From the IMG/VR virus record IMGVR_UViG_2737471835_000006: DNA of 53,176 bases. One strand, given 5' to 3'. Positions 7,245 to 53,176 of this stretch are shown here, one piece after another (the stretch's first letter is position 1; every line of letters starts with the position of its first letter). This stretch comes from a virus. Lineage: Duplodnaviria > Heunggongvirae > Uroviricota > Caudoviricetes. The position numbers and the translations under genes are program-made. Under the pieces are notes generated by a model. It was given only the letters and a program-made list of their open reading frames with translations, did not search any database and was not told the origin of the DNA.

Positions 7245-7249
7245 TTGTT

Positions 7250-12998: not shown

Positions 12999-13028
12999 GT
13001 TGATTCCTTAAAAAGAGCCTTTCGGCTC

Positions 13029-14063: not shown

Positions 14064-14083
14064 TTATATATCCTGTATAAAAA

Positions 14084-14120: not shown

Positions 14121-14124
14121 GCTA

Positions 14125-14454
14125 TCAGCCAACGCTGACTGGCGTACCAGCAAACGCTGATTTGCGTTTAGCGACGTCAGTAACCGTACCCCAGTTAATC
14201 GCCGTATAACGAAACGATCCTGATTTGTAGTACGAGCAGTCTGCAGAACTGGAGCCTGTATTAACTGCTGTGGCTGTGAGACCAACCGCCTTACCAATTG
14301 AGCCGTCCCAGACTTTAAACGTCCCGGCAGTAGCGTCGAGCATAATCGGTGTCAGCCGGGGTACGTTGATCCCGCCCTGAAAATGACCGACGGTCGTCAC
14401 AACAAGATCGGGTCCCAGAATAAAATCATCCGGGCTATACGTTTCTGTGGTCAT
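14125..14454 (-). CDS. Head decoration protein, lambda gpD family
   Basis: 109 aa; PIMLDATAGTFKVWDG and KRKSAFAGTPVSV match lambda gpD. Confidence 0.85.
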   Translation of the reverse strand: MTTETYSPDDFILGPDLVVTTVGHFQGGINVPRLTPIMLDATAGTFKVWDGSIGKAVGLTATAVNTGSSSADCSYYKSGSFRYTAINWGTVTDVAKRKSAFAGTPVSVG

Positions 14455-15764: not shown

Positions 15765-17335
15765 CAGTTACCTCCCCAGCCGTTATCGTTGGTATTTGAG
15801 GGGTGAGATACTGACCAGGATGGTTCGCTCAGCTCCATTTCGCGCCGGCGCTGAATTTCGTATTCCTGTTGTTCCATGACCTCCTCGTAGTCCTGCCCCT
15901 GCAGCGCGAGTTCGTTCTGATACGTGCTGAGGCCAGTCGTGATGCGCATGGCGCTCTCCTGAACCTCTTTCAGCCCATCAATCGCCATGCGACCAGCGCC
16001 GATCCAGAGCGCGTTCGTCCAGGAGTTCCGCGCTTCATAAAACGACCGGACCGCTGAGCGTGGCAGGGTGATAACTCCGCGCGCCAGAGCTTCCTCAAAC
16101 CAGCAGCAGAACATCAGTGACGCCTGTCGTGCGGCGATAAAACGTCGACGGCCCATGAAAAAACGCCAGCTCACGTTTGCGCTGGCCCGCGCGCTGGAGT
16201 AACTGACCTGGCTGTAGTCCCGACTCAGTTCCTCATATGACGCGCCGACGCCAGCGGCAACGTAACGCAGGAGTGATTTTTCCAGCGAACTGAAACCAGC
16301 ATCAGCATTCTGAGCGGTCTGTAAACTGAGTTTGTCGCCGGGATGCAGGTGGGGAACTTTCACACCACCGAGCTTGATATTTGCGCCGTTGTAGTACGTC
16401 ACGTAACTCTGAATAAACGAACTCAGCGGGTTCGAGTCGATATCAGTACCCGCGCCGGCGATATATTCAAACGCCTGCTGGCTGTCGAGCTCTGATTCGA
16501 TTGTGGCGGCGTACATCGCCTTCACGATGGCGCTCTGCAGCTGTGTTTGCTGCAGCGTATCGAGCATTTTCAGCCGCTCCATTACGCTGTAAAAAATGTT
16601 ATCTCCGCGGGTTTGTCCGTCCTCGAGCGGCTCGAATATGTGAATGAATGCGTGTCTGCCGCTGCTGAGTTTTGCTGGTATGCGCCGGCATTTACCAACT
16701 CCGCCGAGGGGATAGGTATCCTCGGCTATCCAGTACCCAACCGCGGCCCCGTTTTTATCGATATCAACACCGGCGCGGCGAAATTGAGTGTCAGCTGCGT
16801 AGCCAGGATTTCGAATTCGTTTCGGTGAGACCATTTTGAATCGCGTCCGAAAAACGCTGCCGGCGCAGCTCTCCCACACCGGTTGTACGCAGGTTTCACC
16901 GTTGAACGCGTGAGTGGCCACGCCTTCGCGAATCATCATTGTGAACGTCCGTTTCCGCTCGATATCAATCGTGCAGTGAGGGTCCTCGGCGTATTCAGTC
17001 CACGCGACCTCAACGTCACGCGCCAGCGCCCTGGCGTCCTCGCGAGATATCCCGATGTAACGCCAGTTAGGGCGATAACTCAACTTAAACAGATTGCCGA
17101 CGATATGATCCTGATGCAGCTGCACGGCGTTCGACGCGACGCCGTTATTACGAACGAGATCGTCTGCTCGCGCGTTACCGCGATAAAAATTAGGCAGCAG
17201 TGCCGCATCGGCGCTTTGCTGTGGTGCATTCCAGTCAATCAGCTGGCCACCGAAGCCGGGACCGCCGCCGTTATACCCCGCGTAACGGCGTAGTGGCGTT
17301 TTACCGTCAGGCCCGAGCAACTGCTGAGCAGTCAT
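15764..17335 (-). CDS. Portal protein, lambda gpB family
   Basis: 523 aa; long collinear blocks with lambda gpB (LLPNFYRGNARADDLVRNNG, KRTFTMMIREGV, YSVMERLKMLDTLQ, IDGLKEVQE). Confidence 0.9.
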   Translation of the reverse strand: MTAQQLLGPDGKTPLRRYAGYNGGGPGFGGQLIDWNAPQQSADAALLPNFYRGNARADDLVRNNGVASNAVQLHQDHIVGNLFKLSYRPNWRYIGISREDARALARDVEVAWTEYAEDPHCTIDIERKRTFTMMIREGVATHAFNGETCVQPVWESCAGSVFRTRFKMVSPKRIRNPGYAADTQFRRAGVDIDKNGAAVGYWIAEDTYPLGGVGKCRRIPAKLSSGRHAFIHIFEPLEDGQTRGDNIFYSVMERLKMLDTLQQTQLQSAIVKAMYAATIESELDSQQAFEYIAGAGTDIDSNPLSSFIQSYVTYYNGANIKLGGVKVPHLHPGDKLSLQTAQNADAGFSSLEKSLLRYVAAGVGASYEELSRDYSQVSYSSARASANVSWRFFMGRRRFIAARQASLMFCCWFEEALARGVITLPRSAVRSFYEARNSWTNALWIGAGRMAIDGLKEVQESAMRITTGLSTYQNELALQGQDYEEVMEQQEYEIQRRREMELSEPSWSVSHPSNTNDNGWGGN

Positions 17336-17565
17336 AATCGAACTCCCACGGGACGGCGGCGTCCCGTACTCAGACCGAGCTGTGATTTCAGCTCGATAAT
17401 GTACGTTCGGAGCTGTTCAATACTCGCCTGTGAGTATTGATAGCTCCGGTTATTTCCCGCTGAATCGCCGTGAGACAGCGATACAGTCGATCTACCCGTT
17501 AATAATTTGTGCAGGGCAATTTCAGCTTCCAGCAGCCGTTCTGTTAAAACCTCGCGCGACATCAT
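17332..17565 (-). CDS. Head-tail joining protein, lambda gpW family
   Basis: 77 aa; ALHKLLTGRSTVSL ... LRTYIIELKSQLG parallels lambda W; 4-nt overlaps with terminase and portal. Confidence 0.8.
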   Translation of the reverse strand: MMSREVLTERLLEAEIALHKLLTGRSTVSLSHGDSAGNNRSYQYSQASIEQLRTYIIELKSQLGLSTGRRRPVGVRL

Positions 17566-19526
17566 GAGCTCCCTCCGAGCATTCTGGCCATCTCCTCGAG
17601 AGACAGTTTGTTTTGTGATTTTTTCCGTTGCTCAGCGAGCGTCTCGAGATTGAGCTGGAAACGAATTTTACTGATACGTAGCGCTGCCAGCGCGTATACC
17701 CAGCAGTCGAGCGCCTCATTTCGCCGGCCCTGGTTGTCCCAGCGATAAACGACGCGACCGTTAATCAGTTTCGGGATCAGAACTTCAGAGACGAGCTGTT
17801 TTGCCTCTGTCGTGCCGAATATTTCGTCGTCGTTGGGAAAATGAATCGCACTTGGTGTCGCCGATTTAGAATCGGGTTCCAGCGGCAGGCGCATTGCGAG
17901 CAAATCTTTTGCCGTATCAGTACCGATTAACGACAAATAGACTTTATTCGCGTTACGTGTACGCGGCATATTTACGACTGGCTGACCGTATGAACTCGCA
18001 CCTTTAATTGGAATGACCCACAGCGGACCGAGTTTCAGCGAGCGGTTATAAACGACCTGCGCATCTATACCACCGGTATCCCACGCCCAGCGACTGACGC
18101 CGATTGTGGTCCCGTCGCTGCGCCGGTATTGTTTGCGAATCACTCCGTCGACGCGCTGCAGCGTGTCCTCCTCGTCGTAGCGACCGAGGACGATTGTTTT
18201 ATCAATCAGCCAGCACTCCTCCTCCACTCCCCAGCCCCACACGTAACACTCGTAGCGACCGGACGTCTGAGAGTCGATGCCGCCGGTCAGATAAACAACA
18301 CCGTCAGGAACCTGGCTGGCGTATTTTTCCCGGCGATTAACCAGAATATCGTGCTCCAGCTGCTCGCTGGCTACGTCACTCCAGAGTTCGCCGAGCGTCG
18401 TGTTATGAAACGTCTTTTCTTTGAGCGGATCGCCCTTCGCTTTCAGCCACTCGCTGACAATCTCGCCCCAGCCGTCGAGATTCAGCGAATACATGGCGTT
18501 TATCACGATCGCCGCGTGTTTCGGCGCGCGAACGACACCACCGTCGTGATCAAAAAAACGAATACCGTCCCGCGTCCAGGTGCAGTCCTCTGCTATCCAG
18601 CGCCCCGCGAGCTCCATTTTTTCGAGATCGCGATAGTAAAAATGCTCAGGACAGTGGCAGCACTGGTAATACGCGGACGACGATTTCGCCTCATTTGTCT
18701 GCAGGCTATTATCCCATTTGAGGCCATATTCGATGCCGTCGAAACCAAATACCAGGACCTGCTCCTCGCCACAATGCGGACATTTCAGGTAAAAACGAAA
18801 CGTCAGGTCAGCGGCATCCTCCAGCATTTCAATATGACTTTTTCCGGTGACGGTTGGCGTCGAGCCGAAAATCGCCTTCGGGTACGCTGCCCCTTTAATT
18901 CGAACGAGCGCCAGTTCGATGGGCGAGCCCTCGCCTTTGCCTTTTTTGGCAACTTCCAGCGGCCAGCCGTCAACTTCGTCACCCTCGACAACCTGTTTCG
19001 TTAGTCGCCGGAAATTTCCTGGTGCACTCGCGCCGCGAAAATCAATAATCGCGCCGCTCATTTCTTTACGCTGGAGATTGTTACGCTCGTTGCTTTTATC
19101 CCAGTCGGGGAAAATTTTCTGAATCACCGGCATTTCGGCGATAGCGGGGTCAACCTCGTCGGCAACAAATCCATCCGATTCGTCATCGATAGGCTGATAG
19201 ACCACGGCACTACGTTTTTTGTGCTCAGCGAAATAGAGCAGCGCCGCGACGAGTATTTTTGTATAACCGAGACGAGCTGATTTGCGAACAGACACGATTT
19301 TTATCGCGTCGTTAGTCATCATATTGAGCATCACTACCTGGACCGGCTGAGTCGTCCAGTGGCCAGCGATGTGGCTGGAGCCCTCAGGGAGATAAAAATA
19401 TTTATCAGCCCACTCAACCCCCGTCATCGGTATCGTCACGCGCAAGGGATTCAACCCTGTCGAGATCGCGTTCGATATCGCTGACATCGTAATCGCTGAA
19501 GTCGACTCGTATGTCTGCCAGTTCAT
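17562..19526 (-). CDS. Terminase large subunit, lambda gpA family
   Basis: 654 aa; VEWADKYFYLP, CPHCGEEQ, KTFHNTTLGELW and VIPIKGAS blocks match lambda gpA; start may be a downstream Met, reducing the overlap with the small subunit. Confidence 0.9.
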   Translation of the reverse strand: MNWQTYESTSAITMSAISNAISTGLNPLRVTIPMTGVEWADKYFYLPEGSSHIAGHWTTQPVQVVMLNMMTNDAIKIVSVRKSARLGYTKILVAALLYFAEHKKRSAVVYQPIDDESDGFVADEVDPAIAEMPVIQKIFPDWDKSNERNNLQRKEMSGAIIDFRGASAPGNFRRLTKQVVEGDEVDGWPLEVAKKGKGEGSPIELALVRIKGAAYPKAIFGSTPTVTGKSHIEMLEDAADLTFRFYLKCPHCGEEQVLVFGFDGIEYGLKWDNSLQTNEAKSSSAYYQCCHCPEHFYYRDLEKMELAGRWIAEDCTWTRDGIRFFDHDGGVVRAPKHAAIVINAMYSLNLDGWGEIVSEWLKAKGDPLKEKTFHNTTLGELWSDVASEQLEHDILVNRREKYASQVPDGVVYLTGGIDSQTSGRYECYVWGWGVEEECWLIDKTIVLGRYDEEDTLQRVDGVIRKQYRRSDGTTIGVSRWAWDTGGIDAQVVYNRSLKLGPLWVIPIKGASSYGQPVVNMPRTRNANKVYLSLIGTDTAKDLLAMRLPLEPDSKSATPSAIHFPNDDEIFGTTEAKQLVSEVLIPKLINGRVVYRWDNQGRRNEALDCWVYALAALRISKIRFQLNLETLAEQRKKSQNKLSLEEMARMLGGSS

Positions 19527-19980
19527 TCAGGGCTATCGCCAGCTCCTCTCGTAAAACACTGCTCGCCTCCTGCGGCATTTCAGGCCACACCTTTTTCAAC
19601 CGTGGTGGCCACGATTCGACACGGGTACGTAATTCAACTGCGACGCGAGATACAGCGACGCTGATTAATTCAATTGGCGCGTAGCGTTTAGCAAGAATGC
19701 GGCGTTTCACGCGAGCCATCAGGATTCGCTCCTGTCGTTCCTCATTTTTCAGCCACTGCTCGCGATTTTTTTCGGGAGAATTGTCCCCCACTTCCGGTTC
19801 GTCAGTACCAACTGTGTCGCGTCTATTACTCCGGAGATAATGAATATAGAAATGGCGCCAGGCGTCTAGCTCCCAATCACCACGTCCTTGTGGGACTGGT
19901 GCTCCCGGAAGTTTTGCGAGATCGCGCAGACGACGATCTGATAGCAGTAAATGTGCTGCGACCTCAGCCTGACTTGCCAT
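19414..19980 (-). CDS. Terminase small subunit (Nu1-position, N-terminal HTH)
   Basis: 188 aa immediately upstream of and overlapping the large subunit; N-terminal helix-turn-helix-like segment, acidic C-terminus. Confidence 0.55.
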   Translation of the reverse strand: MASQAEVAAHLLLSDRRLRDLAKLPGAPVPQGRGDWELDAWRHFYIHYLRSNRRDTVGTDEPEVGDNSPEKNREQWLKNEERQERILMARVKRRILAKRYAPIELISVAVSRVAVELRTRVESWPPRLKKVWPEMPQEASSVLREELAIALNELADIRVDFSDYDVSDIERDLDRVESLARDDTDDGG

Positions 19981-20352
19981 TAAAAATCCTCACCGGAACC
20001 GGAAATACATAAAATGAAAAAATACTAAAAATGAGTGAGTTTTTGCGCGTCTACCGACCCTCGGTGTTTTGAATTTCGGAAAGGACCCGCGACCAGGGGG
20101 GCTATATCCCTTTCAGGACAGGAATCGGGGGCTCGCATCAGGTTCATCAAACTCGACTGTAGCCTCGCGGCGTACTTGTTTGCATACATCAGCTTTGTGT
20201 ATCTCATTATCAGCGTAAGCTTTCACTTTGGCAGCGAGCCATCCTTTTGCGCTGTATCGATAGACTACCGAACAAAGTTTTCCCTATGTGTATATATCTT
20301 GAAATTATTGATATTCTTACAGAAAAGCAACAACCATGAGCACACAAAAAAA

Positions 20353-22303: not shown

Positions 22304-22574
22304 ACCTGTCTCCTGTTATTTTTGAAATATTCCCTCGTGCCCGCCAGACAGCAATACAGATGGTGAGATTGAGAAAGAACTCTGCGGGATCAACCTGCGT
22401 GTATTTCCCGTAAAAAATTCGTAGGGCTATCCACGCAGCAGACAGAATCGCCAGGTAAGCAGTTAGTGAGATGAAAAAACGATAGCGGCCTGTTTTTTGA
22501 AAAAACATCAACCGCAGTGCCAGCATCAGACAGATAATTGCATTGGCATTAATGAGGACAGAGTGCAGGGTCAT
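22290..22574 (-). CDS. Lysis-cassette membrane protein (holin/antiholin-like)
   Basis: 94 aa with about three hydrophobic helices; coupled to neighbours by overlapping stop/start. Confidence 0.5.
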   Translation of the reverse strand: MTLHSVLINANAIICLMLALRLMFFQKTGRYRFFISLTAYLAILSAAWIALRIFYGKYTQVDPAEFFLNLTICIAVWRARGNISKITGDRYDRS

Positions 22575-22957
22575 TATTTCATCCCCTTATCTGATTTCCA
22601 TAAACGAGCTTGTGACATGATCCGCAACAGTGATGTAACGCTGATTACTGATGCAACCAGTGCACCAATGGCGGGAGAGACTTTTACTGTTACGGGAGGG
22701 TTCAGGTGACTCAGCACCGCGTTCAGAATACCGGTAATGATGGCTGACGCTGTCTCAGCGCAATACACACCGCCAACAAACGAAATGAGTGCGAAAATAA
22801 CCTGCTTCCAGAATCGATGCTGCCCGGACGACAACACATAGAGAGCTGCGCCAGCCAGCGCACAGATCATCACTGCAGGTGTTGCCTCAGGAAATAACGC
22901 AGCAAACGTCACCCCCGCCGAGCCAGCAGCAACGCCAGCGGTTAGAGGTTCAGACAT
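22574..22957 (-). CDS. Putative holin
   Basis: 127 aa, multiple transmembrane segments, charged C-terminus; first gene after the putative late promoter/terminator. Confidence 0.55.
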   Translation of the reverse strand: MSEPLTAGVAAGSAGVTFAALFPEATPAVMICALAGAALYVLSSGQHRFWKQVIFALISFVGGVYCAETASAIITGILNAVLSHLNPPVTVKVSPAIGALVASVISVTSLLRIMSQARLWKSDKGMK

Positions 22958-42673: not shown

Positions 42674-42854
42674 ACTGACCGGCTACCAGTTCCCGTCAAA
42701 ACAATGCGGCGCCCTGACCCGTGCCGGGATCTCTTATGTAAAACGCCGCGATGGGCGACCTCGCGTCACATGGACGCATGTAAACGCTGCGCTGTCCGGA
42801 GCAAGGTCCGTGCAGATTGCCGAAGAAGAACAACCAAATTTTGATGCAATCTGA
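42639..42854 (+). CDS. Putative excisionase / recombination directionality factor
   Basis: 71 aa immediately upstream of the integrase with overlapping stop/start. Confidence 0.4.
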   Translation: MNDLLNDEELVELTGYQFPSKQCGALTRAGISYVKRRDGRPRVTWTHVNAALSGARSVQIAEEEQPNFDAI

Positions 42855-43882
42855 TGAGCAGAACACGAAAAAGCGCGGAAGATAATAAGCTGCCACCCCG
42901 CGTTTATAAAAACAAATACAGCTATTATTTCAAACCAACGCCCCGAGAGTGTATTACGCTGGGTAAAATTAATGATCTGTCAATTGCTCAGGTATGGGTG
43001 AAATACGAAGAGATCCTGAATGATGCTATTGATGTCATGACGTTCAGTAAACTCTGGAACAAATTTCTCAACAGCACCTACTATCTGGAACTCGGTCAGC
43101 GTACACAAAAGGATTATCTGCAGCACCAGAAGAAATTACTCGCCGCGTTCGGGAAAATGAAAGCCGACAACATAAAACCTGCTCACGTGCGGCTGTATAT
43201 GGACAAGCGGGGGCTGAAAAGCAAAACACAGGCGAACCATGAAAAAGCCAGTATGTCGCGAGTATTCCGCTGGGGATACGAACGCGGATACGTAAAAGGG
43301 AATCCATGCCAGGGCGTCAGTAAATTTTCCCTCAAGCCCCGCGACTACTATTTCACGGACGAGGAATATATCGCAATTTATCAGGAGGCATCTCCCGTTT
43401 TACAGTGCGCGATGGAGATCGCCTATCTGTGCGCCACGCGGATCGGCGATATACGAAAGCTGACGTGGGATCAGGTTATGAGTAAGGGTTTGTTTATCCA
43501 ACAGGGTAAGACTGGCAAAAAGCAGATCAAACAGTATTCAGAGCGACTGACGTTCGCACTTGAGCAGGCGAAATCGTTGGGAGGACAACATTTCGTGGTC
43601 TGTAACAAATATGGCGGGCAATACAGTTATACCGGATTTAACGATATCTGGCGTAAAGCCAGGGCGGCGGCAAGTGAAAAGCTGGGCTACCCGATTACGG
43701 GAACGTTTCACGATTTAAAAGCGAAGGGGATCTCAGACTACGACGGAAGCAGTAAAGAAAAGCAGTTGTTCTCTGGTCACAAAACTGAGGCGCAGGTGCT
43801 GACGTATGATCGCAAACCTGCAGTTTCTCCGACTCTGGATATTCCGGTGCTGGATGTCACAGTTCTGAGCAGAAACCCGTGA
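42854..43882 (+). CDS. Tyrosine site-specific integrase
   Basis: 342 aa; phage-integrase architecture with C-terminal catalytic region (HDLKAKGISDY ... LFSGHK ... LTYDRK); adjacent to a tRNA-derived att core. Confidence 0.8.
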   Translation: MSRTRKSAEDNKLPPRVYKNKYSYYFKPTPRECITLGKINDLSIAQVWVKYEEILNDAIDVMTFSKLWNKFLNSTYYLELGQRTQKDYLQHQKKLLAAFGKMKADNIKPAHVRLYMDKRGLKSKTQANHEKASMSRVFRWGYERGYVKGNPCQGVSKFSLKPRDYYFTDEEYIAIYQEASPVLQCAMEIAYLCATRIGDIRKLTWDQVMSKGLFIQQGKTGKKQIKQYSERLTFALEQAKSLGGQHFVVCNKYGGQYSYTGFNDIWRKARAAASEKLGYPITGTFHDLKAKGISDYDGSSKEKQLFSGHKTEAQVLTYDRKPAVSPTLDIPVLDVTVLSRNP

Positions 43883-43967
43883 CGGTCTAATTCTAAGTGA
43901 ATATTCTAAGTCCGTTCTAACAGGGGGATCGACGGTGAAAAGTGAGTGACGTAAGTCATTGATAAAG

Positions 43968-44037
43968 TGGCGGAGAGAGGGGGATTTGAACCCCCGGTAG
44001 AGTTGCCCCTACTCCGGTTTTCGAGACCGGCCCGTTC
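43968..44037 (-). tRNA. tRNA-Ser (anticodon CGA) 3' fragment; att core copy, not a complete gene
   Basis: Minus strand reads anticodon arm CCGGT-CTCGAAA-ACCGG, long variable arm, T-arm GGGGG-TTCAAAT-CCCCC, acceptor 3' strand TCTCTCC and CCA; no complementary 5' acceptor strand exists upstream. Confidence 0.6.
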
Positions 44038-44163
44038 ATCAAACAAAACAGCAACTTAGCTCACATTATGAGGAAAAGTATCTTTTTTGTACTATGTAAA
44101 TTCAAAGGGTTAGCCTCATTTCCCAGATGGTTTTCTCAACACTATTAGTTGTGAGCCCTTGCA

Positions 44164-45266
44164 ATGTTCATTAATATACACCACACAAATAATTCACAGA
44201 TATTGCAAAATGCTCAGGTCAAAAATAAAATAAAACGTGTTGATCGTCTGCTCGGTAATGAATCTCTTCATCACGACATCCCCCTGATTTTCATAAACAT
44301 TATTTCCATGCTGACGAGCAAGCTGTCACTGTGTGTCATCGCCGTTGACTGGAGTGGATACCCCTCTCAGGAGTATCACGTACTCCGCGCCAGCCTGATT
44401 TGCGATGGACGTTCGATTCCATTGCTGAGTTGGATAGTTCCTTCGGAAAAACAGCAAAATGCTAAGATACAGCAAGCCTTTCTTAATACTCTTTCCGAAG
44501 CGGTAAACCCAAAAGCAAGGGTAATCATCGTCGCGGATGCAGGGTTTCAGAATGCCTGGTTTCGGCACGTAAAATCACTCGGCTCGGATTTTATTGGCCG
44601 GATACGAGGCAATAAACAACTACATCTGGCAAGAAAAGGGGAATGCTGGTTCAGGCGTCAGGAATTACAGGCCAGTAACAAACCTGAATATCTGGGGCCG
44701 GGGACGCTTTCCCGGGCGGAATACGCCCGTTGCGATGGTCATTTTTATTTGCACAAAAAAGAGCCGAAAGGCCGGAGAAATAAACGTTCGCGTTGTGGTA
44801 TAGCCAGACCATCACAGATAAAAGATGCCAGGTCGGCGGCAAAAGAACCATGGTTAATATTCAGCAGCACAGATGACTTTAAACCGCGAGAAATCATGAA
44901 GTTATACAGCCACCGAATGCAGATTGAGCAAAACTTCAGGGATGAAAAAAGTGAGCGTTTTGGGTTCGGTCTGCGAGCCAGTTGCAGCTGTTCGGCAGGA
45001 AGAATGCTGGTACTGAGCCTGCTGGCAACACTGAGCACAATAGTGCTGTGGCTTATTGGCTATCACGCTGAAAATCAAGGAGATATCAGGCCAACAGCAT
45101 TAAAACGCAGCGGGTAATCTCGCATCTGACGTTAGCGGAGAATGTCTTACGACACTCCCCGCTAATTTTAAAACGAACGGTGCTAAGCACCATTCTTAAT
45201 CACCTCGCCAGAACCTACCAGAATATGGTGTTGGTTTATTAGCGCTGATTTATGGGGATCCCTCAG
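44164..45266 (+). mobile_element. IS4-family (IS10-like) insertion sequence remnant with disrupted transposase
   Basis: 317-aa ORF 44164-45117 collinear with the IS10 transposase core (KRVDRLLGN, VIIVADAGF, SAAKEPWL, YSHRMQIEQNFRDEKS) but short at both ends; terminal repeat CTGAGGGATCCCCATAAAT (reverse strand) at 45248-45266; no left end found. Confidence 0.6.
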
Positions 45267-45407
45267 CGCTTATGCGGGCTTTTTCATCTACTTAAATTAC
45301 GGTGTTTAATACATCCCCCTCAACGGGTATCATTCTTTTCTTTCATCGATCCAAACTTTCCACCATAAAAATGAATCCCCATATGATCTAGAAGCGAATA
45401 TCGATTA

Positions 45408-47111
45408 CTATGTGGGGTCGACCAACCAACCTTCAATATAATGGAAAGGAACTGGGTATCGGTAACAGCGACACGCTGTAAGAACTAATGGTGCATACCC
45501 TTTAATCACGGCTGACATTCTCTTAAACGAATCTGCATTATTACACTCTTGTGCAATGTGTTTTATTGCTAATTCGCCATTCATCGGGAAATCTGTTGAC
45601 GCTGAGCCATGTGTATCTGAGTTCGAGTACATATATTGTTCACTGTATTGATTTGGATACCAATACTGTAGCGTGCTATGTGCCAGTTTTTCAGTAGCAA
45701 ACTCTTCCAAATCTTTGCTTAAAGAGTCTAATTTATACAGAGAGCAAAAGACTGTTAACAGAGGATATAAAATACTAGCCTCAGTAACCTTATTCTTATA
45801 AATCTTGTCAGTTTTATCTTTATTCCTATGTTCAATCAGTTTTTCGTAAGTTTCATATATAATTGGATACATTCCATTGATCTCAAAAGAGAATATACAT
45901 CTATTAACCATTTCCGATAGCCAACTTTTCACAAACTCATCGAGCTCTGAATTATTTGAGAGTAACATTAGAGCTAACCCAATATCTATCGCCTGAGAAT
46001 CTTTTTGCGGTGAGAGCAGAACCGGATTGTTGATAACTAATAGACGAATTGACTTTGTTATTTTCCTGAGATGTATACATAACCTTTCTTGTTCTTTGCT
46101 CTCTCCATCAATTGGTGGGTTCTCTGCATAATTCTTAGACAACAAATCTAAAATCCAGTGTCCCTTGACGGATAAACGACCTAGCACATCAAAAAGCTTA
46201 AAGTTTATATCAATAGAGCACGGGGAGCGAACAGCATGAGATAAAGCATATTTAAATTCAACATACGGAATTAAACAACGTTCAATATAGCAATCAGTAA
46301 TTTGCTGGTAGGTATCTAAAATGCTATCAAATGACTTTGAAGGCCTATTCTTTCCGGTATAGTGTTCTTTTACTTTATCCCAAGCTAACAGCAATGCTCG
46401 TTCTGATGAAAGATATGCTGATTCTAAATTCCCGCCATCACGACACCAAGCAAATAAAACCCATAGACAAACATTTATCCGTGTTATCGATGAGGCAACA
46501 GAATCTGAATCTGTAGCGTTTTTCAGAACATCATTAATCAATAGAAAGAAGTAATTGCTAGAAGTCTCTGGTTCTTCAAGTAAAGCCAAAGATTTTCTTA
46601 ATAAGGTCTGGCTGGAACTAGGTAGTAATTCTTCTTTCAACAAATGCTGCTGGATAAGCTCAGATATTTTATCACCATTCCACTCTTCAAAAGAAATATT
46701 ACCTTGAGTATTTCGTGTTTCATACCCAGACACCTCTTGCCTGATCCCTGAGCTAACATCTCCACCAAAGCATAAGCAAATAACTATTTTTTTATCTCTA
46801 TGTTCGGGCGGTAAACGACTTGGTATAAATGAATCTTGAATCTCATCTAACGAAGGTCTAAGAGCCTGATCTGCGTTTCCATTCCATGTCTCACGAGTAA
46901 GGTTTCCAGATTTAACAGAAAATAAATAGACTTTTGTCTCTTCACCATTTATTTGGCCTACAGCCGCTATATCTACTCCATACTCTTTCACTCCACGGGT
47001 TGGCGAAATAAACACATTCATCCCCATACTGCTCAACAAATCTGGCAGTATAGCATCTAACTCTGCTCGTTCTTTTAATGAAGCCAAGTATTGCTTAAGA
47101 ATTAATTTCAT
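45408..47111 (-). CDS. Uncharacterised large protein with Mrr-type restriction-endonuclease-like N-terminal domain
   Basis: ATG start at 47111 lies 1 nt after the upstream gene's stop (the track's 47126 start is a GTG). N-terminal SPTRGVKEYGVDIAAV ... KVYLFSVKSG resembles the Mrr catalytic-domain pattern; rest helical; AT-rich. Confidence 0.5.
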   Translation of the reverse strand: MKLILKQYLASLKERAELDAILPDLLSSMGMNVFISPTRGVKEYGVDIAAVGQINGEETKVYLFSVKSGNLTRETWNGNADQALRPSLDEIQDSFIPSRLPPEHRDKKIVICLCFGGDVSSGIRQEVSGYETRNTQGNISFEEWNGDKISELIQQHLLKEELLPSSSQTLLRKSLALLEEPETSSNYFFLLINDVLKNATDSDSVASSITRINVCLWVLFAWCRDGGNLESAYLSSERALLLAWDKVKEHYTGKNRPSKSFDSILDTYQQITDCYIERCLIPYVEFKYALSHAVRSPCSIDINFKLFDVLGRLSVKGHWILDLLSKNYAENPPIDGESKEQERLCIHLRKITKSIRLLVINNPVLLSPQKDSQAIDIGLALMLLSNNSELDEFVKSWLSEMVNRCIFSFEINGMYPIIYETYEKLIEHRNKDKTDKIYKNKVTEASILYPLLTVFCSLYKLDSLSKDLEEFATEKLAHSTLQYWYPNQYSEQYMYSNSDTHGSASTDFPMNGELAIKHIAQECNNADSFKRMSAVIKGYAPLVLTACRCYRYPVPFHYIEGWLVDPT

Positions 47112-47112
47112 T

Positions 47113-48837
47113 TTACATTCTCTCACTACGACATGTTATCAAAAAATAATCTAGTAACACGGGATCTAAAGCATCCAACCTTGGCATTTCAGTAGAGTGA
47201 GAAAAAGTCTGCATTTGCATTTCCTGTCGTATGGATTCCCCATCACCTTGATGTATATAATAAATAGAACTGTTCCCGTATAATAAAATTTTAGGTTTCG
47301 AGAACATTCTAAATAAAGAAAATTCCGATGCTTCTTCGATAGCTTTTTGCATACTTCTGTCAACATTTTTCCAATAAATGCTTAAATTTTCGCTGGGTGC
47401 TTTTAGTTCATTAAGTTCAGATACTTTTTCAATACCAGTCTGATGGAGTTTATACTTTGCAAGCAATCGCTCACATAGATGTTCCTGGATGCCGCTATCA
47501 ATGCATGATTGAAAGAAGCGTTTAAGTTCTCCAGGGTAACTTAAAAGCAAAGGGAAGTACAAAATACCCTCAAGCTTTTCAATTGTGTTTTCCGAAGCCA
47601 CATCTGCAATAGAAAGAATAAATTTTGCAGTTTCAACTGGCCGTGTAAATAACCATCCTATAGCCTTACGACTAATAAAAACTTGCTTTATATCATTATC
47701 CAATAAATCCAATTCCGCCTTTAGTTCAATTTCCTCACCCGTAGCATCATGAAGTAAATCTAAAATACCATGACAAAATTGTTTTTCTCCACCCAGAAGC
47801 CATTTTGTAATGATGTGATTAAGTAGTTCTTGATGCTTACTTATTAATTCATTAGAAAAATAGTCCAGCGATTTAAATGTAACACCTGCTATTAAAGTTG
47901 ACTCCAATAATTCCACAGCAAGCGAGTACTTACTTTTCTCAGCTAACATGACCAATATATAATCAATATTACCTATAATACCTTTATGATCACAGGACAC
48001 ATTAGTTAATTTCTTAAGCATGATATACAGAATACTATCTGGAAGAATCTCCGATTGAAATGCAACAATACTTGAAATTATCTGAAGAACCTCTGTAGAT
48101 TCTCTCTTAACAAAAGCAATTAAAAACTCTTCTATTTGCGGCCAGTAAGATGGAAACCTTTTCCCAAATTGGAGTGCAGACATCAATATCGACGCACAAC
48201 AATCATTATCACTCTCGCTAACACCATTGTTTCTAATTTGCTCCCAAATTAAGTTAGCCTTTGTCTCATCAATATCTAACTGTCCCAAAGTAAAATAGCC
48301 TTGATTTCTGATCATTGCATTTCTATTAGAAATGAGTCTTTCTGTCATCTGGATAGCTGTTATGACACTATCTGCGTCGTAAGCAAGGAGCGAGCTTGAA
48401 AGAAAAGGGGCATATGCATTCAAATCACTTTGTGCAAGGATAAACTCAACACTATCTCTAGAGCGAGATGCTTTCACACTACAGTAACGCTCATAGGCTT
48501 TATAGATTGTACCAATAGTTGCCCCTCTCCCGACCTGTTGCACCAATTGAACCAGACAATGTAGAACATCCTCAATTCTTGCATCTATCAAAGGTAGCGC
48601 TTCTTCAAACGTTTGTAGAATAGTAAAAAAATTACTACCGTAGGATTTTTTATCAATACCTTTTACCATTTTGAGGATATCAATCACACCAGTGTTGTGG
48701 AGTTCAGCTAGCGCTAATGCTAAACTTCTTTCTTCGGTATGTAATTCTTGAGCATATAAATCACAAACTAGAGCAAGCAGATCTTCTGCCGTTTCACTTG
48801 CATTCAGCAACTGGCCTCTTGTTTCTTCTAACGACAT
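47113..48837 (-). CDS. Uncharacterised large alpha-helical protein, first gene of a two-gene operon
   Basis: Start placed at ATG 48837 (MSLEETRGQ) with GAGG about 9 nt upstream; the track's 48852 start is a GTG. No P-loop or other catalytic motif seen; AT-rich. Confidence 0.5.
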   Translation of the reverse strand: MSLEETRGQLLNASETAEDLLALVCDLYAQELHTEERSLALALAELHNTGVIDILKMVKGIDKKSYGSNFFTILQTFEEALPLIDARIEDVLHCLVQLVQQVGRGATIGTIYKAYERYCSVKASRSRDSVEFILAQSDLNAYAPFLSSSLLAYDADSVITAIQMTERLISNRNAMIRNQGYFTLGQLDIDETKANLIWEQIRNNGVSESDNDCCASILMSALQFGKRFPSYWPQIEEFLIAFVKRESTEVLQIISSIVAFQSEILPDSILYIMLKKLTNVSCDHKGIIGNIDYILVMLAEKSKYSLAVELLESTLIAGVTFKSLDYFSNELISKHQELLNHIITKWLLGGEKQFCHGILDLLHDATGEEIELKAELDLLDNDIKQVFISRKAIGWLFTRPVETAKFILSIADVASENTIEKLEGILYFPLLLSYPGELKRFFQSCIDSGIQEHLCERLLAKYKLHQTGIEKVSELNELKAPSENLSIYWKNVDRSMQKAIEEASEFSLFRMFSKPKILLYGNSSIYYIHQGDGESIRQEMQMQTFSHSTEMPRLDALDPVLLDYFLITCRSERM

Positions 48838-49086
48838 ATTCCTTAACCTCACAAAACTGACATTAGATCAATCCGTACTTTGTAAGATTAGAAGAAACAG
48901 GTCAATTGTAACCTCCCCATTTCATACATCTTGATGTTCGCAACTTCCGCCACAGTTCTCGAATCAATGCCATACTGTCATGAAGTTTTGGTAGAAAGAT
49001 ATTTAGGTTCACTCATACCAGAATACGGCAAAATTGATAACGACTATAAATCATTCAATACTCGCACTATCAGAAGTTCACCAGCC

Positions 49087-49131
49087 AACCGCGGCACGTC
49101 CTGCATAGGACGTGTCTGCGGTTTTTCTTTT
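49087..49131 (+). terminator. Strong plus-strand rho-independent terminator with no obvious plus-strand gene
   Basis: Extended stem around CACGTCC-TGCATA-GGACGTG followed by TTTTTCTTTTT. Confidence 0.5.
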
Positions 49132-49135
49132 TCGC

Positions 49136-49720
49136 TTACATTGTGTCTGGTTCTTCCGGCCACTCAATATCAGGTGCAGTTGTTGTATTAACACGGTTCA
49201 GCAACACCCGATACTTCTTCCAGGCTTCCAGCAACGAGGTTTCTTCCTCCGTTGCAATTTCCAGATCTGCAGCATCCTGAAGCGGCGCAATATGCTCACT
49301 GGCTACCTGCATCAGGCTGTTTTTTGTTTCTTCCGCCTCCCGGATCCGGAACAGTTTTTCTGCTTCTGCATCTTTCACCCAGGCTGTGCCGTTCCACTTC
49401 TGATATTCCCCTCCCGGCGACAACCAGGTAACATTTTCCGGTAACGGACCGAGTTCAGAAATAAATAACGCGTCGCCGGAAGCCACGTCATAAACCGTTT
49501 TACCCCGATGGTCTTCAACGAGATGCCACGATGCCTCATCACTGTTGAAAACAGCCACAAAGCCAGCAGGAATATCTGGTGGTGCAATATCGGTACTGTT
49601 TGCTGGCAGACCTGTATGAGGCGGAATATATGCGTCACCTTCACCAATAAATTCATTAGTCCCGACCAGCAGATTATAAATTTTTATGGTCCGTGGTTGT
49701 TCACTCATTCTGAATGCCAT
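49136..49720 (-). CDS. tfa: Tail fiber assembly protein, lambda Tfa
   Basis: 194 aa, near-identical over its length to lambda Tfa as recalled ([18 protein letters not shown] ... [51 protein letters not shown]). Confidence 0.85.
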
Positions 49721-52700
49721 TATGCAAGCCTCACAATATAGTTAAATGCGATGTTTTTGACGGTGTTTTCCGCATTACCAGCAGCGTTAACGGTGATGGT
49801 GTGTCCATGTGAACCAATCGCAACGGAGTGCGTATGAGCACCAATACCGACAGTATGCGCGTGTGCACCTGCAGATGCTGCTGTGCCGGACAGTGAGTGG
49901 CTATGATTACCATCTGTACTGGTATTAGCTAACCACCCCGTAGACATACCTACTGAGCCTTGTACACCCCAGGTATTTTGACCTGAGCTTGTATAACCAT
50001 ATTGATAAGTATCTTTAAAAACACTGGGGTTAAATCGACGGCCATCTCTATGGCTGTGATTACCAGCTGCATTCGTGCTGCCACTTAAACTATGAGTATG
50101 CGCACCAGTGTTATTCGTGGATTTAGTGCCGTAATCAAACGATGATGTGGTTTTCGTACCCAAATCCGTACTGGATACGCTGGCGCTGTGGGTGTGCGAT
50201 TTAATGCCGTCCTGTTCCTGAGACAATACGGCACGACCACTGGCGGGCTTGCCCTTAATCGTCCAGCCACGCATATCAGGGATCACGCCTGACGGATAAG
50301 CGGCTGCAAGTTTCGGGTAAGCAGATTTGTCAAAAGTCTGCCCCTGCATCAGGGCATAACCAGACGGAACGGTATCTGATGGCCACGGGATTGGTGCGCC
50401 GACTGGGTAGCTTTCTGGTGGAAGATTTTTCGAGGTATAAACTTCTGCCCAGTCTTCCTCAAAACCATAACCGTCTCTTGAAGAACGGTAGAACAGACCA
50501 CCATTTCTGTAATGCGCCTTCATCTGCAGGGTCCGGCAACTTCCGACTCCGGTATAGAAGTTAACCAGAATATAGCTGTCGCCAGAGCGGGTGACATTGT
50601 AAGCGCCTGATTCGGCATTCCATGGAACGCCCCCATCCGCATCGGCATATGTATCCGTTGCCCTTCTGGCAAAAGCAGCCACATGCGCGGCGGTTAAAGT
50701 GATATCAGTAGAACCATCAAATGGAACACCGGATATTTTTCTTGCAGTCTGAAGTTTTGTAGCAGTTGCAGCATTACCAGTGGTGTTCTGATTACCCGTA
50801 GTGTTTACACCTGGAAGGTTAATATTTGCAGAACCGTCGAAAACAACTCCACCGATAGATCTTGCCGTCTGCAATTTCGTGGCTGTACTTGCATTACCAT
50901 TCAATGAACCAGTTAATCCACCTGTAACAGACAACGGACCTGAAACTGTTCCTCCGGTTGTTGGCAGTGCTCCAATATCTGATGGTGTAGGTTTCTGATG
51001 TGAGCTATACATCGTATAAACAACACCATAGGTAACGCTGGAAGGCTTACTCACTGAATATGTTGGCGAGGTATAAACAGAAACTGACGCATTTGCAGTA
51101 CAATCCCAATGGATATTTACACTCGTCGCATAATTGCCAATCTCAACGTAAATATCATATGTATCGCCGGATGTGTTGATCCAGGCGAAATTCGTTAATC
51201 CGACGGCTGTACGCTTCCACAAAGCCCCGGTAATTCCTTTGGGGTTTCCATTGCCTGCTCGTAGAACCAGTTCTGAAATGCCTGCCTGATGTGGGGAGCC
51301 GACGTTGTAACCAGCGCCACCAATCAATGCGATGTAAACGATGGAACTCGCTTGTGGCATGGTAACCGTAGCCAGTTTGAACCACCCAGCCCCGCCAGAG
51401 AAAGACATCGTTACTGAATTTAAAGTACCAATATCTTTCGGCGTTAATGTTATATCCGCAGTCAGTGCTTTTCCGTTAACTTTTCGGTTAGATGGCACCC
51501 TGCTATTCGCATTGTCATTGGCTGCTTTAACTGCTTTTGGCGTTGCGGCCAGCGATTCACTGGTGCTATCAACAGCACTGCTAAGTTTCACAACACCTTT
51601 AGTTGTAAGGCTTGCGTCTTCCATCGCAACTGCACCGGCAATCTCTTCAGCACGATCAGCAGCAGTTTCCGCACGGGTCGCAGCGGATTCAGCAGCAGTT
51701 TTGCTCTGAGATGCTGCCGTCGCACTGCCTGCCGCCTCTGTTGCTTTCGTGGATGCCGTCGCGGCGCTGCCCTTCGCTGCTGACGCCTGTCTGGTCGCCT
51801 CATCTTTTGAAGCAGACGCAGATGATGCCGATGACGCCGCCGAACTGGCGGACGATGCGGCAGCCGTTTTTGAGGATTCTGCGCTGGTTTCCGACGCTTT
51901 CGCGTTCGTCTCGGATGTCTTCGCTGCGGAAGCAGACCTCGCTGCTGCGCTGGCCTGTACAGCGGCTTCGCCAGCCTTCGTTGTGGCTGTTGAAGCGGAC
52001 GATGCAGCACTTTCTGCCGATTTTCCGGCGGCGGTGGCACTGGCTGAGGCCTGCCCGGCACTTGTTGACGCGGCACTGGCAGACGACGCAGCCGCTGTTT
52101 TTGAGCCTGCCGCAGCTGAGGCACTCTGTCCCGCTGCCGTTTCAGAAGCCTTGGCGTTCGTCTCGGACGTTTTTGCCGCCTTCGCAGAATTTGCTGTCGC
52201 CGTTGCCGAGGAAGCTGCGCTGCTGGCGCTCGAGGCTGCGCTCGTTTCTGATGATTTTGCCGCCTCTTTTGAAGCCGACGCATCCCGGGCTGAGGTGGCA
52301 GCTTCTGACGCTTTCGTGGTCGCGGTGGATGCTGAAGTGGCTGCTGATTGTTGTGACGCTGCCGCATTCGTTTCTGACGTTTTTGCCGCAGCGGCACTGG
52401 TGGCCGCCGCGCTTTTTGAGGACTCTGCAGCGGCAGCACTTTTTGATGCTTCAGTGGCCTTTGCTGATGCCGTTCCTGCGCTGGAAGACGCTGACTGAGC
52501 CGACGAAGCGGCCTGTCCGGCTGACGTGCTGGCTGCGCGTGCTGAGCCTGCAGCATCAGTCGCATGGGTTGCCGCCTCACGGGCTGATGTGCTGGCATCG
52601 CCGGCTGACTTCTTCGCGGCTGCCGTGTTCTGTGCCACCGCGGACGCGTTACGCGCCACCTCTTCCACCATCAGTTCAAAACGGCGCAGTGCCTCAGGAC

Positions 52701-52995
52701 GGGCATCATCCTCCGTCATGGCACCGAGAAAATCATTCAGCGTACCGGGTCGGGAATCTTCATACACGGTGATGGTCCCGGCATGTGACGGCGGGAATCC
52801 TTCCACCAACAGAATAACGCTGTACTGACCGTACTCAACGTCCATGCTGTAACGCCCGGCTTCATCCGGATTTTCTGAGGCCAGCGTGTTCACCACCACC
52901 GTGGTGCTGTTACGTTTTGCTTTCAGCTGGATTGTGCAGTTCTGTACCGGTTTTCCTGTGCCGTCTTTCAGTACACCTGAAATCTTTACTGCCAT
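49720..52995 (-). CDS. stf: Side tail fiber protein, lambda Stf family (long form)
   Basis: [27 protein letters not shown]-terminus, Ala/Ser-rich repeats, and His/Gly-rich C-terminal region ending [11 protein letters not shown] as in lambda Stf; ATG start placed 6 nt inside the track ORF (first codon there is GTG). Confidence 0.9.
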
Positions 52996-53003
52996 ATTCA
53001 CCC

Positions 53004-53033
53004 CACAAAAAAGCCCGCCTGAACCGGCGGGCT
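53004..53033 (-). terminator. Rho-independent terminator between lom and stf
   Basis: Stem AGCCCGCC/GGCGGGCT with 6-nt loop; on the minus strand it is followed by UUUUUUG. Confidence 0.5.
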
Positions 53034-53059
53034 GTCATAACACTGTGTTACCTGGCTAA

Positions 53060-53176
53060 TCAGAACTTATAACCGACACCCACGATGAAACCGTCAGTGC
53101 GCCAGTCGCCACTGCCGGAGCCTTCATAAGCAATATCAATGGCCACGGATTCGGTCGGGTTAAACTGCACGCCAGC
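53060..53176 (-). CDS. lom: Lom/Ail/PagC-family outer membrane protein, C-terminal fragment (continues beyond window)
   Basis: Minus-strand translation ends ...AGVQFNPTESVAIDIAYEGSGSGDWRTDGFIVGVGYKF-stop, matching the lambda Lom C-terminus; lies upstream of stf as in lambda. Confidence 0.7.
   Translation of the reverse strand, partial: AGVQFNPTESVAIDIAYEGSGSGDWRTDGFIVGVGYKF

What the first reader, a model, noticed from the sequence alone, without database searches (positions are those of the whole stretch)
49087..49131. Strong plus-strand terminator downstream of tfa with no plus-strand gene to serve
The hairpin and T-run are oriented to stop plus-strand transcription, but all flanking genes are on the minus strand. 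It may be the vestige of a gene convergent with tfa (as ea47 is in lambda) that was replaced by the two-gene operon, or the end of an unannotated small RNA starting within 48853-49086.
Basis: seen in the sequence. Interest (0 to 1): 0.25.

Follow-up and report, generated by a model that had tools for sequence, protein, structure and literature searches.

The report
Orphaned terminator at prophage cargo-swap junction
The hairpin plus T-run next to the tail-fibre assembly gene is a real transcription terminator that in related prophages ends a small cargo gene pointing towards tfa; here that gene was swapped for an Olokun defence operon on the other strand, which left the terminator without a gene, an ordinary by-product of phage mosaicism.

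Summary
Window 49087-49123 forms a 16-17 bp hairpin followed by TTTTTCTTTTT (49122-49132). It reads as a terminator on the + strand only, and it is the strongest terminator-like site in the 53 kb window. Both neighbours are on the minus strand: tfa, and a two-gene operon that I identify as the Olokun defence system (OloA/OloB).

Every relative with the same hairpin and T-run that was found without using Olokun DNA as the query has a + strand gene converging on tfa and ending just before the hairpin. This gene is usually a LexA-box-controlled DinI-like gene, and otherwise a GIY-YIG nuclease, a transposase or a hypothetical gene.

On one shared backbone, the slot left of the hairpin holds either GIY-YIG (+) or IS4'-OloB-OloA (-). 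This is a direct cargo swap.

The hairpin belongs to a CCGCAG...CTGCGG family. Members lie after tfa (in lambda itself, between tfa and ea47, without the T-run) and after pinE. Two pairs show compensatory changes, some copies have chimeric arms, and breakpoints cluster at the hairpin's edges.

The small-RNA alternative has no support: no promoter above chance, no Rfam family and no resemblance to DinR.

Verdict: an orphaned, probably still working terminator. Interest is low.

The parts
49087..49123 (+). Terminator hairpin. The 5' arm is 49087-49102, the loop GCAT is 49103-49106, and the 3' arm is 49107-49123 with a bulged T at 49115. The two outermost pairs are A-U pairs with the first two T of the T-run. 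It belongs to the CCGCAG...CTGCGG hairpin family.
   Evidence: Fold energies and z-scores. Strongest terminator-like site in the window. Across 12 family variants, 96.5% of cells are paired and 2 pairs show compensatory changes.
49122..49132 (+). T-run TTTTTCTTTTT (a U tract on the + strand RNA). It ends 3 nt before the complement of the tfa stop codon (49136-49138).
   Evidence: The run is present in the DinI-linked, GIY-YIG-linked and Olokun-linked variants. It is absent from lambda-type variants, which read CATAAT/CATATC after the stem.
49030..49086 (+). 57-nt spacer homologous to the 3' untranslated region that follows DinI-like and other + strand cargo genes in relatives. Homology to DinI-type loci begins here. 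Homology to Salmonella phage SPF_0923 begins at 49008.
   Evidence: Alignment; flanks; blastn.
48838..49029 (-). Sequence specific to the Olokun block: the 5' untranslated and presumed promoter region of oloA. It has no homology to DinI-type relatives.
   Evidence: Found in only 14 of 5426 complete E. coli genomes. No promoter-like site at 9/12 or better was found on the minus strand here, so the promoter is inferred, not shown.
47113..48837 (-). oloA, Olokun defence system gene A. The RefSeq start is 48837; the ORF could start at a GTG at 48852.
   Evidence: PADLOC OloA, E 2.9e-110. RefSeq annotates identical copies as hypothetical protein.
45408..47111 (-). oloB, Olokun defence system gene B.
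   Evidence: PADLOC OloB, E 3.3e-207. GC content is 33-39%, against about 50% in the phage backbone.
44164..45117 (+). IS4-family transposase fragment that accompanies the Olokun genes in every copy inspected. The shared block begins at about window 43846.
   Evidence: Pfam DDE_Tnp_1. RefSeq annotates it as a pseudogene. blastn boundaries.
49136..49720 (-). tfa, the tail fibre assembly gene, whose 3' flank carries the hairpin.
   Evidence: Pfam Caudo_TAP, E 7e-43.

Best explanation
This is an intrinsic (Rho-independent) terminator for rightward (+ strand) transcription. It belongs to a hairpin family that marks the outer edge of the tail-fibre module in lambdoid and e14-like prophages.

In relatives it ends a short cargo transcription unit that converges on tfa. 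Usually this is a DinI-like gene behind a LexA box, and otherwise a GIY-YIG nuclease or another cargo gene. The cargo slot to the left of the hairpin is exchanged by recombination, with breakpoints at or just outside the hairpin.

In this lineage the + strand cargo was replaced by an AT-rich block, IS4 fragment-oloB-oloA, that points the other way. The 57-nt 3' UTR remnant, the hairpin and the T-run were kept because the joint lies to their left.

The terminator is therefore orphaned. No + strand gene needs it. It should still stop any + strand (antisense) RNA that arises inside the AT-rich Olokun DNA or reads through from the integrase/IS4 side, before that RNA enters tfa and stf.

Shown: the structure, its orientation, its homology, the neighbouring genes in relatives, and the swap. 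Inferred: that it actually terminates, and that it blocks antisense RNA today.
For: - Structure and strand asymmetry.
- Far beyond chance, and the strongest such site in the window.
- A DinI-like gene (+) ends about 10 nt before the homology breakpoint in mEp460, O157:H7 strain 4276 and AST20. A perfect LexA box, TACTGTATACAAACACAGTA, lies upstream of it (read directly from the alignment).
- 25 of 31 informative IMG/VR loci carry the DinI-like gene. The rest carry GIY-YIG, a 252-aa ORF or a transposase, all on the + strand.
- 39 loci have a convergent neighbour, against 4 with a co-directional one; all 4 are this Olokun junction.
- 533 of 5426 complete E. coli genomes carry the spacer, hairpin and T-run together, and only 10 at 99% identity or more. 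Every one of those inspected had the Olokun block.
- Allelic swap: WP5-S17-ESBL-10 and O157 PA20 share a 98.2% identical left backbone that ends exactly where IS4' or GIY-YIG starts. The hairpin is the right boundary in both.
- The GIY-YIG gene with its hairpin occurs next to tfa (p4A) and next to pinE (PA20).
- Insertion between tfa and ea47 in lambda has no effect on growth or lysogenisation (PMC3945230).
Against: - There are no transcript data, so termination is predicted rather than observed.
- The orphaned copy has a more perfect stem than the in-service majority variant (-26.8 against -19.0 kcal/mol). This is not what decay of a useless element would give. However, all Olokun-linked copies are about 100% identical, so the junction is young.
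- This exact spacer and hairpin variant is found only with Olokun, and it moved with Olokun to a pinE locus. It may therefore have a role for the block, or in its mobility.
- The hairpin alone, without the T-run, is conserved in lambda-type loci. The stem may thus also serve the tfa-sense transcript.
Confidence: 0.75

Rival explanations
1. The hairpin works mainly for the minus strand. It would be the 3' stem-loop of the tfa/late transcript, protecting that mRNA from 3' exonucleases or partly terminating it. That would insulate the Olokun operon from tfa transcription, and the T-run would be incidental. This reading does not exclude the best explanation.
For: A hairpin of the same family follows tfa in lambda-type loci that have no T-run on the opposite strand. 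Those loci have U-rich tails on the tfa-sense strand instead (lambda UUAGUUAGUAUAUU; GIY-YIG type UUUAUGCUUAUC). Compensatory changes keep the stem paired across variants.
Against: In this window the tfa-sense tail is UUGGCUGGUGAA, with only two U next to the stem, and the minus-strand fold is weaker (z -2.5). The scan does not call the site on the minus strand. From general knowledge, late transcription under Q antitermination ignores intrinsic terminators anyway.
Confidence: 0.2
2. The region encodes a small RNA on the + strand. It would either have its own promoter in 48853-49086 or be a relic of a 3'-UTR-derived sRNA of the DinI-like gene, by analogy with DinR. The hairpin and U tail would serve as its Hfq-binding terminator.
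For: There is a terminator hairpin with a long U tail preceded by a 57-nt segment that is conserved across different upstream genes. A promoter-like site, TTGATA-17-AATACT, lies at 49034-49062 and would give an RNA of about 60 nt. There is a precedent: DinR is cut from the 3' end of dinI mRNA in Klebsiella (PMC10907235).
Against: - The promoter-like site scores 9/12, and such sites occur at chance frequency (16 found, 15.9 expected). Its -35 element is not conserved in relatives (TCGGTA).
- No Rfam family matches the hairpin region.
- The spacer shows no resemblance, by inspection, to the 3' UTR of E. coli K-12 dinI, and it pairs with the ftsZ start region no better than shuffled sequence.
- In the window-versus-DinI-type comparison, the spacer is less conserved (about 84%) than the adjacent 3' part of tfa (about 95%).
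- In this window the parental dinI-like mRNA no longer exists.
- No paper contains the sequence.
Confidence: 0.07
3. The inverted repeat acts mainly at the DNA level. It would be a conserved boundary sequence at which cargo cassettes are exchanged between prophages, and its terminator activity would be secondary.
For: - The hairpin is the only sequence shared between otherwise unrelated flanks on both sides. To the right lie tfa or pinE; to the left lie DinI-like, GIY-YIG, methyltransferase, ea47 or Olokun.
- Left breakpoints are staggered at 49008, 49030, 49049, 49065, 49082 and 49087, all just outside the stem.
- Right breakpoints fall directly after the stem.
- Some copies have chimeric arms: PA20 has CCGCAG with CTACGG, strain 41 has CCGCGG with CTGTGG, and L127 has the matched pair CGTAG/CTACG.
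Against: About 35 bp of homology is short, and no recombinase site is known that resembles it. Breakpoints at gene ends are expected anyway, because only viable mosaics survive. Terminators are conserved for their own function.
Confidence: 0.15
4. The hairpin and T-run are a chance match with no biological meaning.
For: Lax consensus scans find terminator-like sites at about the chance rate in this region (9 found, 7.8 expected).
Against: This site is far stronger than any in 60 shuffled windows. It is conserved in more than 500 E. coli genomes, and its pairs show compensatory changes.
Confidence: 0.01

Closest known systems
Intrinsic terminators that close 'morons' (promoter-gene-terminator cassettes) in lambdoid phages, as described for HK97/HK022 (from my own knowledge of Juhala et al. 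2000)
   Same: In relatives, the DinI-like gene with its LexA-box promoter and this hairpin and T-run form such a self-contained cassette beside the late genes.
   Different: In this window only the terminator and 57 nt of 3' UTR remain. The promoter and gene are gone, and the neighbour is on the other strand.
The tfa-ea47 intergenic hairpin of phage lambda (NC_001416, about 22573-22606)
   Same: It occupies the same position, 15 nt from the tfa stop, between tfa and a convergent gene. Its outer stem CCGCAG/CTGCGG is identical, and its inner stem differs by compensatory changes.
   Different: Lambda has no T-run on the ea47-sense strand (CATATCAC follows the stem). Its only U-rich tail is on the tfa-sense strand. 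I found no described function for it.
Bidirectional intrinsic terminators between convergent genes (from my own knowledge, e.g. Ju et al. 2019)
   Same: One hairpin is shared by two converging transcription units. GIY-YIG-type copies have U-rich tails on both sides.
   Different: The copy here, and the DinI-type copies, have a U tract on one side only. In this window the genes do not converge.
DinR, an Hfq-dependent sRNA processed from the 3' end of chromosomal dinI mRNA in Klebsiella (PMC10907235)
   Same: It is a 3' UTR and terminator of a dinI-family gene under LexA control (in relatives of this window).
   Different: There is no evident sequence similarity to the E. coli dinI 3' UTR and no ftsZ complementarity above shuffled controls. 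The parental mRNA is absent here, and processing has not been tested.

Membership tests
Intrinsic (Rho-independent) terminator | Stable G+C-rich stem-loop | tested here: met
   16-17 bp stem with a GCAT loop; -27.7 kcal/mol, z -5.2. Strongest such site in the window.
Intrinsic (Rho-independent) terminator | U tract of about 7-9 nt directly 3' of the stem | tested here: met
   UUUUUCUUUUU on the + strand. Not met on the minus strand, where the tail is UUGGCUGG.
Intrinsic (Rho-independent) terminator | Lies at the end of a co-oriented transcription unit | tested here: not met
   There is no + strand gene within about 4 kb in the window. The feature is met in relatives: 39 loci have a + strand gene ending within 450 nt upstream of the hairpin (66 nt for the DinI-like gene).
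Intrinsic (Rho-independent) terminator | Transcript 3' ends map to the U tract | not testable with these tools
   No RNA data were available.
Bidirectional terminator of a convergent gene pair | Convergent genes on both sides and U-rich tails on both strands | tested here: not met
   The flanking genes are co-directional, and the tfa-sense tail has 2 U next to the stem. GIY-YIG-type relatives do meet the feature.
Moron cassette (promoter + gene + terminator) | Own promoter and gene upstream of the terminator | tested here: not met
   Homology to the DinI-like cassette starts only at 49030, after the gene's stop. The LexA-box promoter and coding sequence are absent from the window.
Hfq-type small RNA (independent, or 3'-UTR-derived like DinR) | Promoter or parental mRNA supplying the 5' end | tested here: inconclusive
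   There is only a 9/12 promoter-like site, at chance frequency and not conserved. No parental + strand gene is present.
Hfq-type small RNA (independent, or 3'-UTR-derived like DinR) | Match to a curated RNA family, or to the DinR / dinI 3' UTR | tested here: not met
   No Rfam hit at the hairpin other than noise (CssrB, 16.9 bits against a gathering score of 76). The spacer is unlike the K-12 dinI 3' UTR by inspection, and ftsZ pairing is no better than shuffles. The Klebsiella DinR sequence itself was not compared.
Olokun defence system (the neighbouring operon, not the hairpin) | Adjacent OloA and OloB genes | tested here: met
   PADLOC HMMs: OloA 2.9e-110 and OloB 3.3e-207, full length, with overlapping genes on the same strand. 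Defence activity was not tested.

The most novel reading that the evidence does not exclude
The CCGCAG...CTGCGG hairpin is a shared boundary element of a cargo hotspot at the outer edge of tail-fibre modules in two unrelated prophage types: lambdoid (after tfa) and e14/P2-like (after pinE). Its short conserved arms would themselves be the crossover points through which defence and SOS-related cassettes (DinI-like, GIY-YIG, methyltransferase, Olokun) are exchanged. On this reading the 'orphan' terminator is the portable right end of the Olokun block.
Probability: 0.25. Interest if true: 0.45.

Novelty: new member of a known kind. Interest (0 to 1): 0.2.

Why it matters
The main value is for annotation. 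The result explains a strong terminator that appears to serve no gene. It also identifies the unannotated 'hypothetical' two-gene operon beside tfa as an Olokun defence system, sitting in a prophage cargo slot that usually holds a LexA-controlled DinI-like gene.

The result also documents a recurrent hairpin at the edge of tail-fibre modules, present in lambda itself. That hairpin could be used to locate cargo and defence hotspots in prophages. If the orphan terminator still works, it would shield tfa and stf from antisense transcription coming out of AT-rich foreign DNA.

None of this changes current understanding of terminators or of phage mosaicism.

Tried and rejected
- Rfam search of 48600-49400 at a permissive threshold. 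Nothing matched the hairpin. The only real hit is IS009, inside tfa.
- DinR analogy. The K-12 dinI 3' UTR looks unrelated by inspection (no alignment was run). RNAduplex of the spacer against ftsZ -60..+30 was no better than shuffled sequence: -12.7 against a mean of -15.7 for the window, and -19.8 against -20.8 for mEp460. The duplex energies from this quick test are crude.
- Full-text search for the hairpin sequence in the paper library: 0 papers.
- Keyword searches on DinI-like genes, tail fibres and terminators, on ea47 terminators, and on Olokun found nothing about this element.
- Small + strand ORFs ending before the hairpin: none credible.
- G.U versus A.C asymmetry as a way to decide which strand's RNA is under selection. 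There were too few independent events, and some apparent ones were alignment artefacts, so I dropped this.
- My first orientation count for hairpins without a T-run was contaminated, because the near-palindromic pattern matched both orientations. Only the T-run class is used.
- Resemblance to invertase crossover sites (hix/gix) or to REP elements was considered from memory and rejected on sequence grounds. It was not formally tested.

Full report
**1. The observation**

Window 49087-49132 reads AACCGCGGCACGTCCT GCAT AGGACGTG T CTGCGGTT TTTCTTTTT.

- As + strand RNA, 49070-49140 folds at -27.7 kcal/mol, against -14.5 +/- 2.5 for dinucleotide shuffles (z -5.2, 0 of 200 as good). The stem has 16-17 pairs with one bulged U and a GCAU loop. 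It is followed directly by UUUUUCUUUUU.
- The complementary RNA folds less well, at -23.5 kcal/mol (z -2.5). It is followed by UUGGCUGGUGAA, which is not a U tract.
- The consensus scan calls the site on the + strand only.
- My stricter scan asked for at least 8 T in 11 bases directly after a hairpin of -15 kcal/mol or better. It found seven sites on both strands of the 53 kb window. This one is by far the strongest (-24.1 kcal/mol; the others range from -15.3 to -17.8). Sixty dinucleotide shuffles of the window gave 1.0 hits on average, and none reached -24.

The flanking genes are tfa (49136..49720, minus; Pfam Caudo_TAP, E 7e-43) and a 574-579 aa gene at 47113..48837/48852 (minus). No + strand ORF of 20 aa or more ends in front of the hairpin.

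**2. The neighbours**

The 'two-gene operon' is an Olokun defence system: OloA (47113..48837; PADLOC E 2.9e-110) and OloB (45408..47111; E 3.3e-207). RefSeq calls the identical proteins hypothetical. The block has 33-39% GC, against about 50% for the phage DNA around it. An IS4-family transposase fragment (44164..45117, +) accompanies it in every copy I inspected. An integrase gene (42854..43882, +) lies further left.

**3. Relatives with the same hairpin**

Homology between the window and phage mEp460, O157:H7 prophages and strain AST20 starts at about window 49030 and runs through the hairpin into tfa. Lambda itself matches only from 49158, inside tfa.

In those relatives, an 82-aa DinI-like gene lies on the + strand. 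It stops about 10 nt before the breakpoint and 66 nt before the hairpin. A perfect LexA box, TACTGTATACAAACACAGTA, lies upstream of it (read directly from the alignment). There the hairpin is simply the terminator of a small SOS-controlled cargo gene that converges on tfa.

An exact-pattern scan of IMG/VR for the 3' arm plus T-run gave 32 loci:

| Upstream + strand gene | Loci |
|---|---|
| DinI-like gene | 25 |
| 252-aa ORF | 3 |
| Transposase-type flank | 2 |
| GIY-YIG nuclease gene | 1 |
| Cut by the contig end | 1 |

Other E. coli genomes show GIY-YIG (p4A) and a Panacea-domain gene plus a hypothetical gene (PEC301), all on the + strand. A Salmonella prophage ends there next to the host gene sitD, also on the + strand.

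I counted all fetched loci with a T-run hairpin and at least 600 nt of flank. In 39 of them the longest ORF ending within 450 nt to the left is on the + strand. In 4 it is on the minus strand, and those four are the window and three copies of the same Olokun junction, which I had retrieved by similarity to the window. A few contigs were fetched twice.

In complete E. coli genomes, 533 of 5426 carry the spacer, hairpin and T-run together. Of these, 522 match at 90-95% identity, the band that includes the O157:H7/DinI-type copy I sampled. Only 10 match at 99% or more; the three of these I inspected all carry the Olokun block.

**4. Direct evidence for a swap**

Strain WP5-S17-ESBL-10 has the order AraC - IS4' - OloB - OloA - spacer - hairpin - tfa. 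O157:H7 PA20 has AraC - GIY-YIG (+) - hairpin - pinE. The two share a 98.2% identical left backbone that stops exactly where IS4' (L121 position 3183) or GIY-YIG (L126 position 1709) begins. The hairpin is the right boundary in both. The same slot therefore holds either a convergent + strand gene that uses the hairpin, or the oppositely oriented Olokun block that does not.

The tfa-ea47 gap of lambda is known to accept an inserted cassette with no effect on growth or lysogenisation (PMC3945230).

**5. The hairpin is a family, and it sits at mosaic joints**

Lambda has a homologous hairpin 15 nt from its tfa stop, between tfa and ea47 (NC_001416, about 22573-22606). It has the same outer stem CCGCAG/CTGCGG and a different inner stem (AACGTT/AACGTT). 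No T-run follows on the ea47-sense strand (CATATCAC), and the tfa-sense strand has the tail UUAGUUAGUAUAUU.

Tfa-anchored loci from IMG/VR show several variants of this hairpin, some other hairpins, and some loci with none. Twelve distinct variants keep 96.5% of cells paired. Two pairs show compensatory changes (C-G to A-U, and C-G to U-A), and slid controls pair at only 26-49%.

About 790 complete E. coli genomes have a hairpin of this family next to pinE of e14-like tail-fibre modules.

Breakpoints cluster at the edges of the hairpin:
- Left breakpoints fall at window 49008, 49030, 49049, 49065, 49082 and 49087.
- Right breakpoints fall directly after the stem. One class carries the window-type hairpin with a lambda-type right flank.
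- In strain 41, the whole IS4'-OloBA-spacer-hairpin block (99.8% identical) sits next to pinE instead of tfa. The sequence diverges after GGTTTT.

Some copies have chimeric arms. PA20 has CCGCAG paired with CTACGG, and strain 41 has CCGCGG paired with CTGTGG. L127 has the matched pair CGTAG/CTACG.

The exact spacer and hairpin variant of this window occurs only with Olokun; the next best match in complete genomes is 92.8% identical.

**6. How it most likely works**

Shown: the element has the anatomy of a strong intrinsic terminator for + strand transcription, and in relatives it sits where it would end a convergent cargo gene.

Inferred: after the swap it has no gene to serve, but it remains able to stop + strand RNA. 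The AT-rich Olokun DNA contains the best + strand promoter-like matches of the region, for example TTCTCA-16-TATAAT at 47936-47963. Any antisense RNA made there, or read-through from the integrase/IS4 side, would be stopped before it enters tfa and stf.

On the minus strand the hairpin lacks a U tract. It should therefore let late transcription run on into Olokun. At most it would act as a 3' stabilising stem for tfa mRNA.

One point sits uneasily with pure decay. The orphan copy has a better stem (-26.8 kcal/mol) than the majority variant that is in service (-19.0). However, all Olokun-linked copies are nearly identical, so the junction is recent and little decay would be expected.

**7. The small-RNA alternative**

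There is a precedent: DinR is cut from the 3' end of dinI mRNA in Klebsiella and represses ftsZ (PMC10907235). Here, however:
- the parental gene is gone;
- the only + strand promoter-like site (49034-49062, 9/12) is of a kind found at chance frequency, and its -35 element is not conserved;
- no Rfam family matches;
- the spacer looks unlike the K-12 dinI 3' UTR and pairs with the ftsZ start region no better than shuffled sequence;
- in the window-versus-DinI-type comparison, the spacer is less conserved than the adjacent 3' part of tfa (about 84% against about 95%).

I rate this alternative at about 7%. Whether DinI-bearing relatives release an sRNA from this 3' UTR remains untested.

**8. 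Comparison with what is known, and verdict**

The element works like the terminator of a lambdoid 'moron' cassette, and in GIY-YIG-type copies like a bidirectional terminator between convergent genes. In this window it fails the membership tests that need a co-oriented upstream gene, so it is best described as an orphaned terminator at a cargo-swap junction.

I found no paper that describes this hairpin, but the kind of element is well known. It is a new member of a known kind.

Interest is low (0.2). The most novel reading still open is that the hairpin arms are themselves the crossover points of a cargo hotspot shared by lambdoid and e14-like prophages. I give that a probability of about 0.25 and moderate interest if true.

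Noticed in passing
window 45408-48852 (minus strand): The two 'hypothetical' genes downstream of tfa are an Olokun defence system (OloA and OloB, by PADLOC HMMs). The block is AT-rich (33-39% GC) and is always accompanied by an IS4 transposase fragment (44164-45117). Only 14 of 5426 complete E. coli genomes carry this variant.
   Followed up: partly
window 49179-49377 (minus strand), inside tfa: A full-length Rfam match to IS009 (RF02111; 227 bits against a gathering score of 117). IS009 is a candidate sRNA family, but here it coincides with the 3' part of an intact tfa coding sequence. The family may simply describe tfa fragments of cryptic prophages.
   Followed up: no
L040 674-707 (phage lambda NC_001416, about 22573-22606): Lambda itself has a homologous hairpin between tfa and ea47. 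It has the same outer stem, a compensated inner stem, and no T-run on the ea47 strand. I found no described function for it.
   Followed up: partly
L126 about 2501-2537, L127 about 2558-2592, L124 5088-5125: Hairpins of the same family lie just 3' of pinE in about 790 complete E. coli genomes. Some have chimeric arms (CCGCAG with CTACGG, CCGCGG with CTGTGG) and one has a matched compensated pair (CGTAG/CTACG). This suggests crossovers inside or at the hairpin.
   Followed up: partly
L124 (E. coli strain 41) 210-5125: The whole IS4'-OloB-OloA-spacer-hairpin block, 99.8% identical to the window, sits next to pinE of an e14-like tail-fibre module instead of next to tfa. The breakpoint is directly after the hairpin.
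   Followed up: yes
L001 2678-2742 and L002 2700-2742: The prophage DinI-like gene that normally uses this terminator has a perfect LexA box (TACTGTATACAAACACAGTA) over its promoter. The displaced cargo was therefore SOS-controlled.
   Followed up: partly
window 53012-53033 (minus strand): A second clear terminator, AGCCCGCC-GGTTCA-GGCGGGCT followed by TTTTTGTGGG, lies between the lom-like gene at the window end and the start of stf (53001).
   Followed up: no
window 1-20000 compared with 42854-53176: The structural genes at the left of the window (no J-sized or H-sized ORFs) do not look like the lambda-type J-lom-stf-tfa end at the right. An integrase (42854-43882) lies between them, and homology to the Olokun-bearing loci starts at 43846. 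The window may span two adjacent prophage elements.
   Followed up: no
window about 51600-52800: The 1093-aa Stf has a long Ala/Ser/Thr-rich low-complexity stretch. GC content there is 0.60-0.62, and the stretch generates long spurious ORFs in other frames.
   Followed up: no
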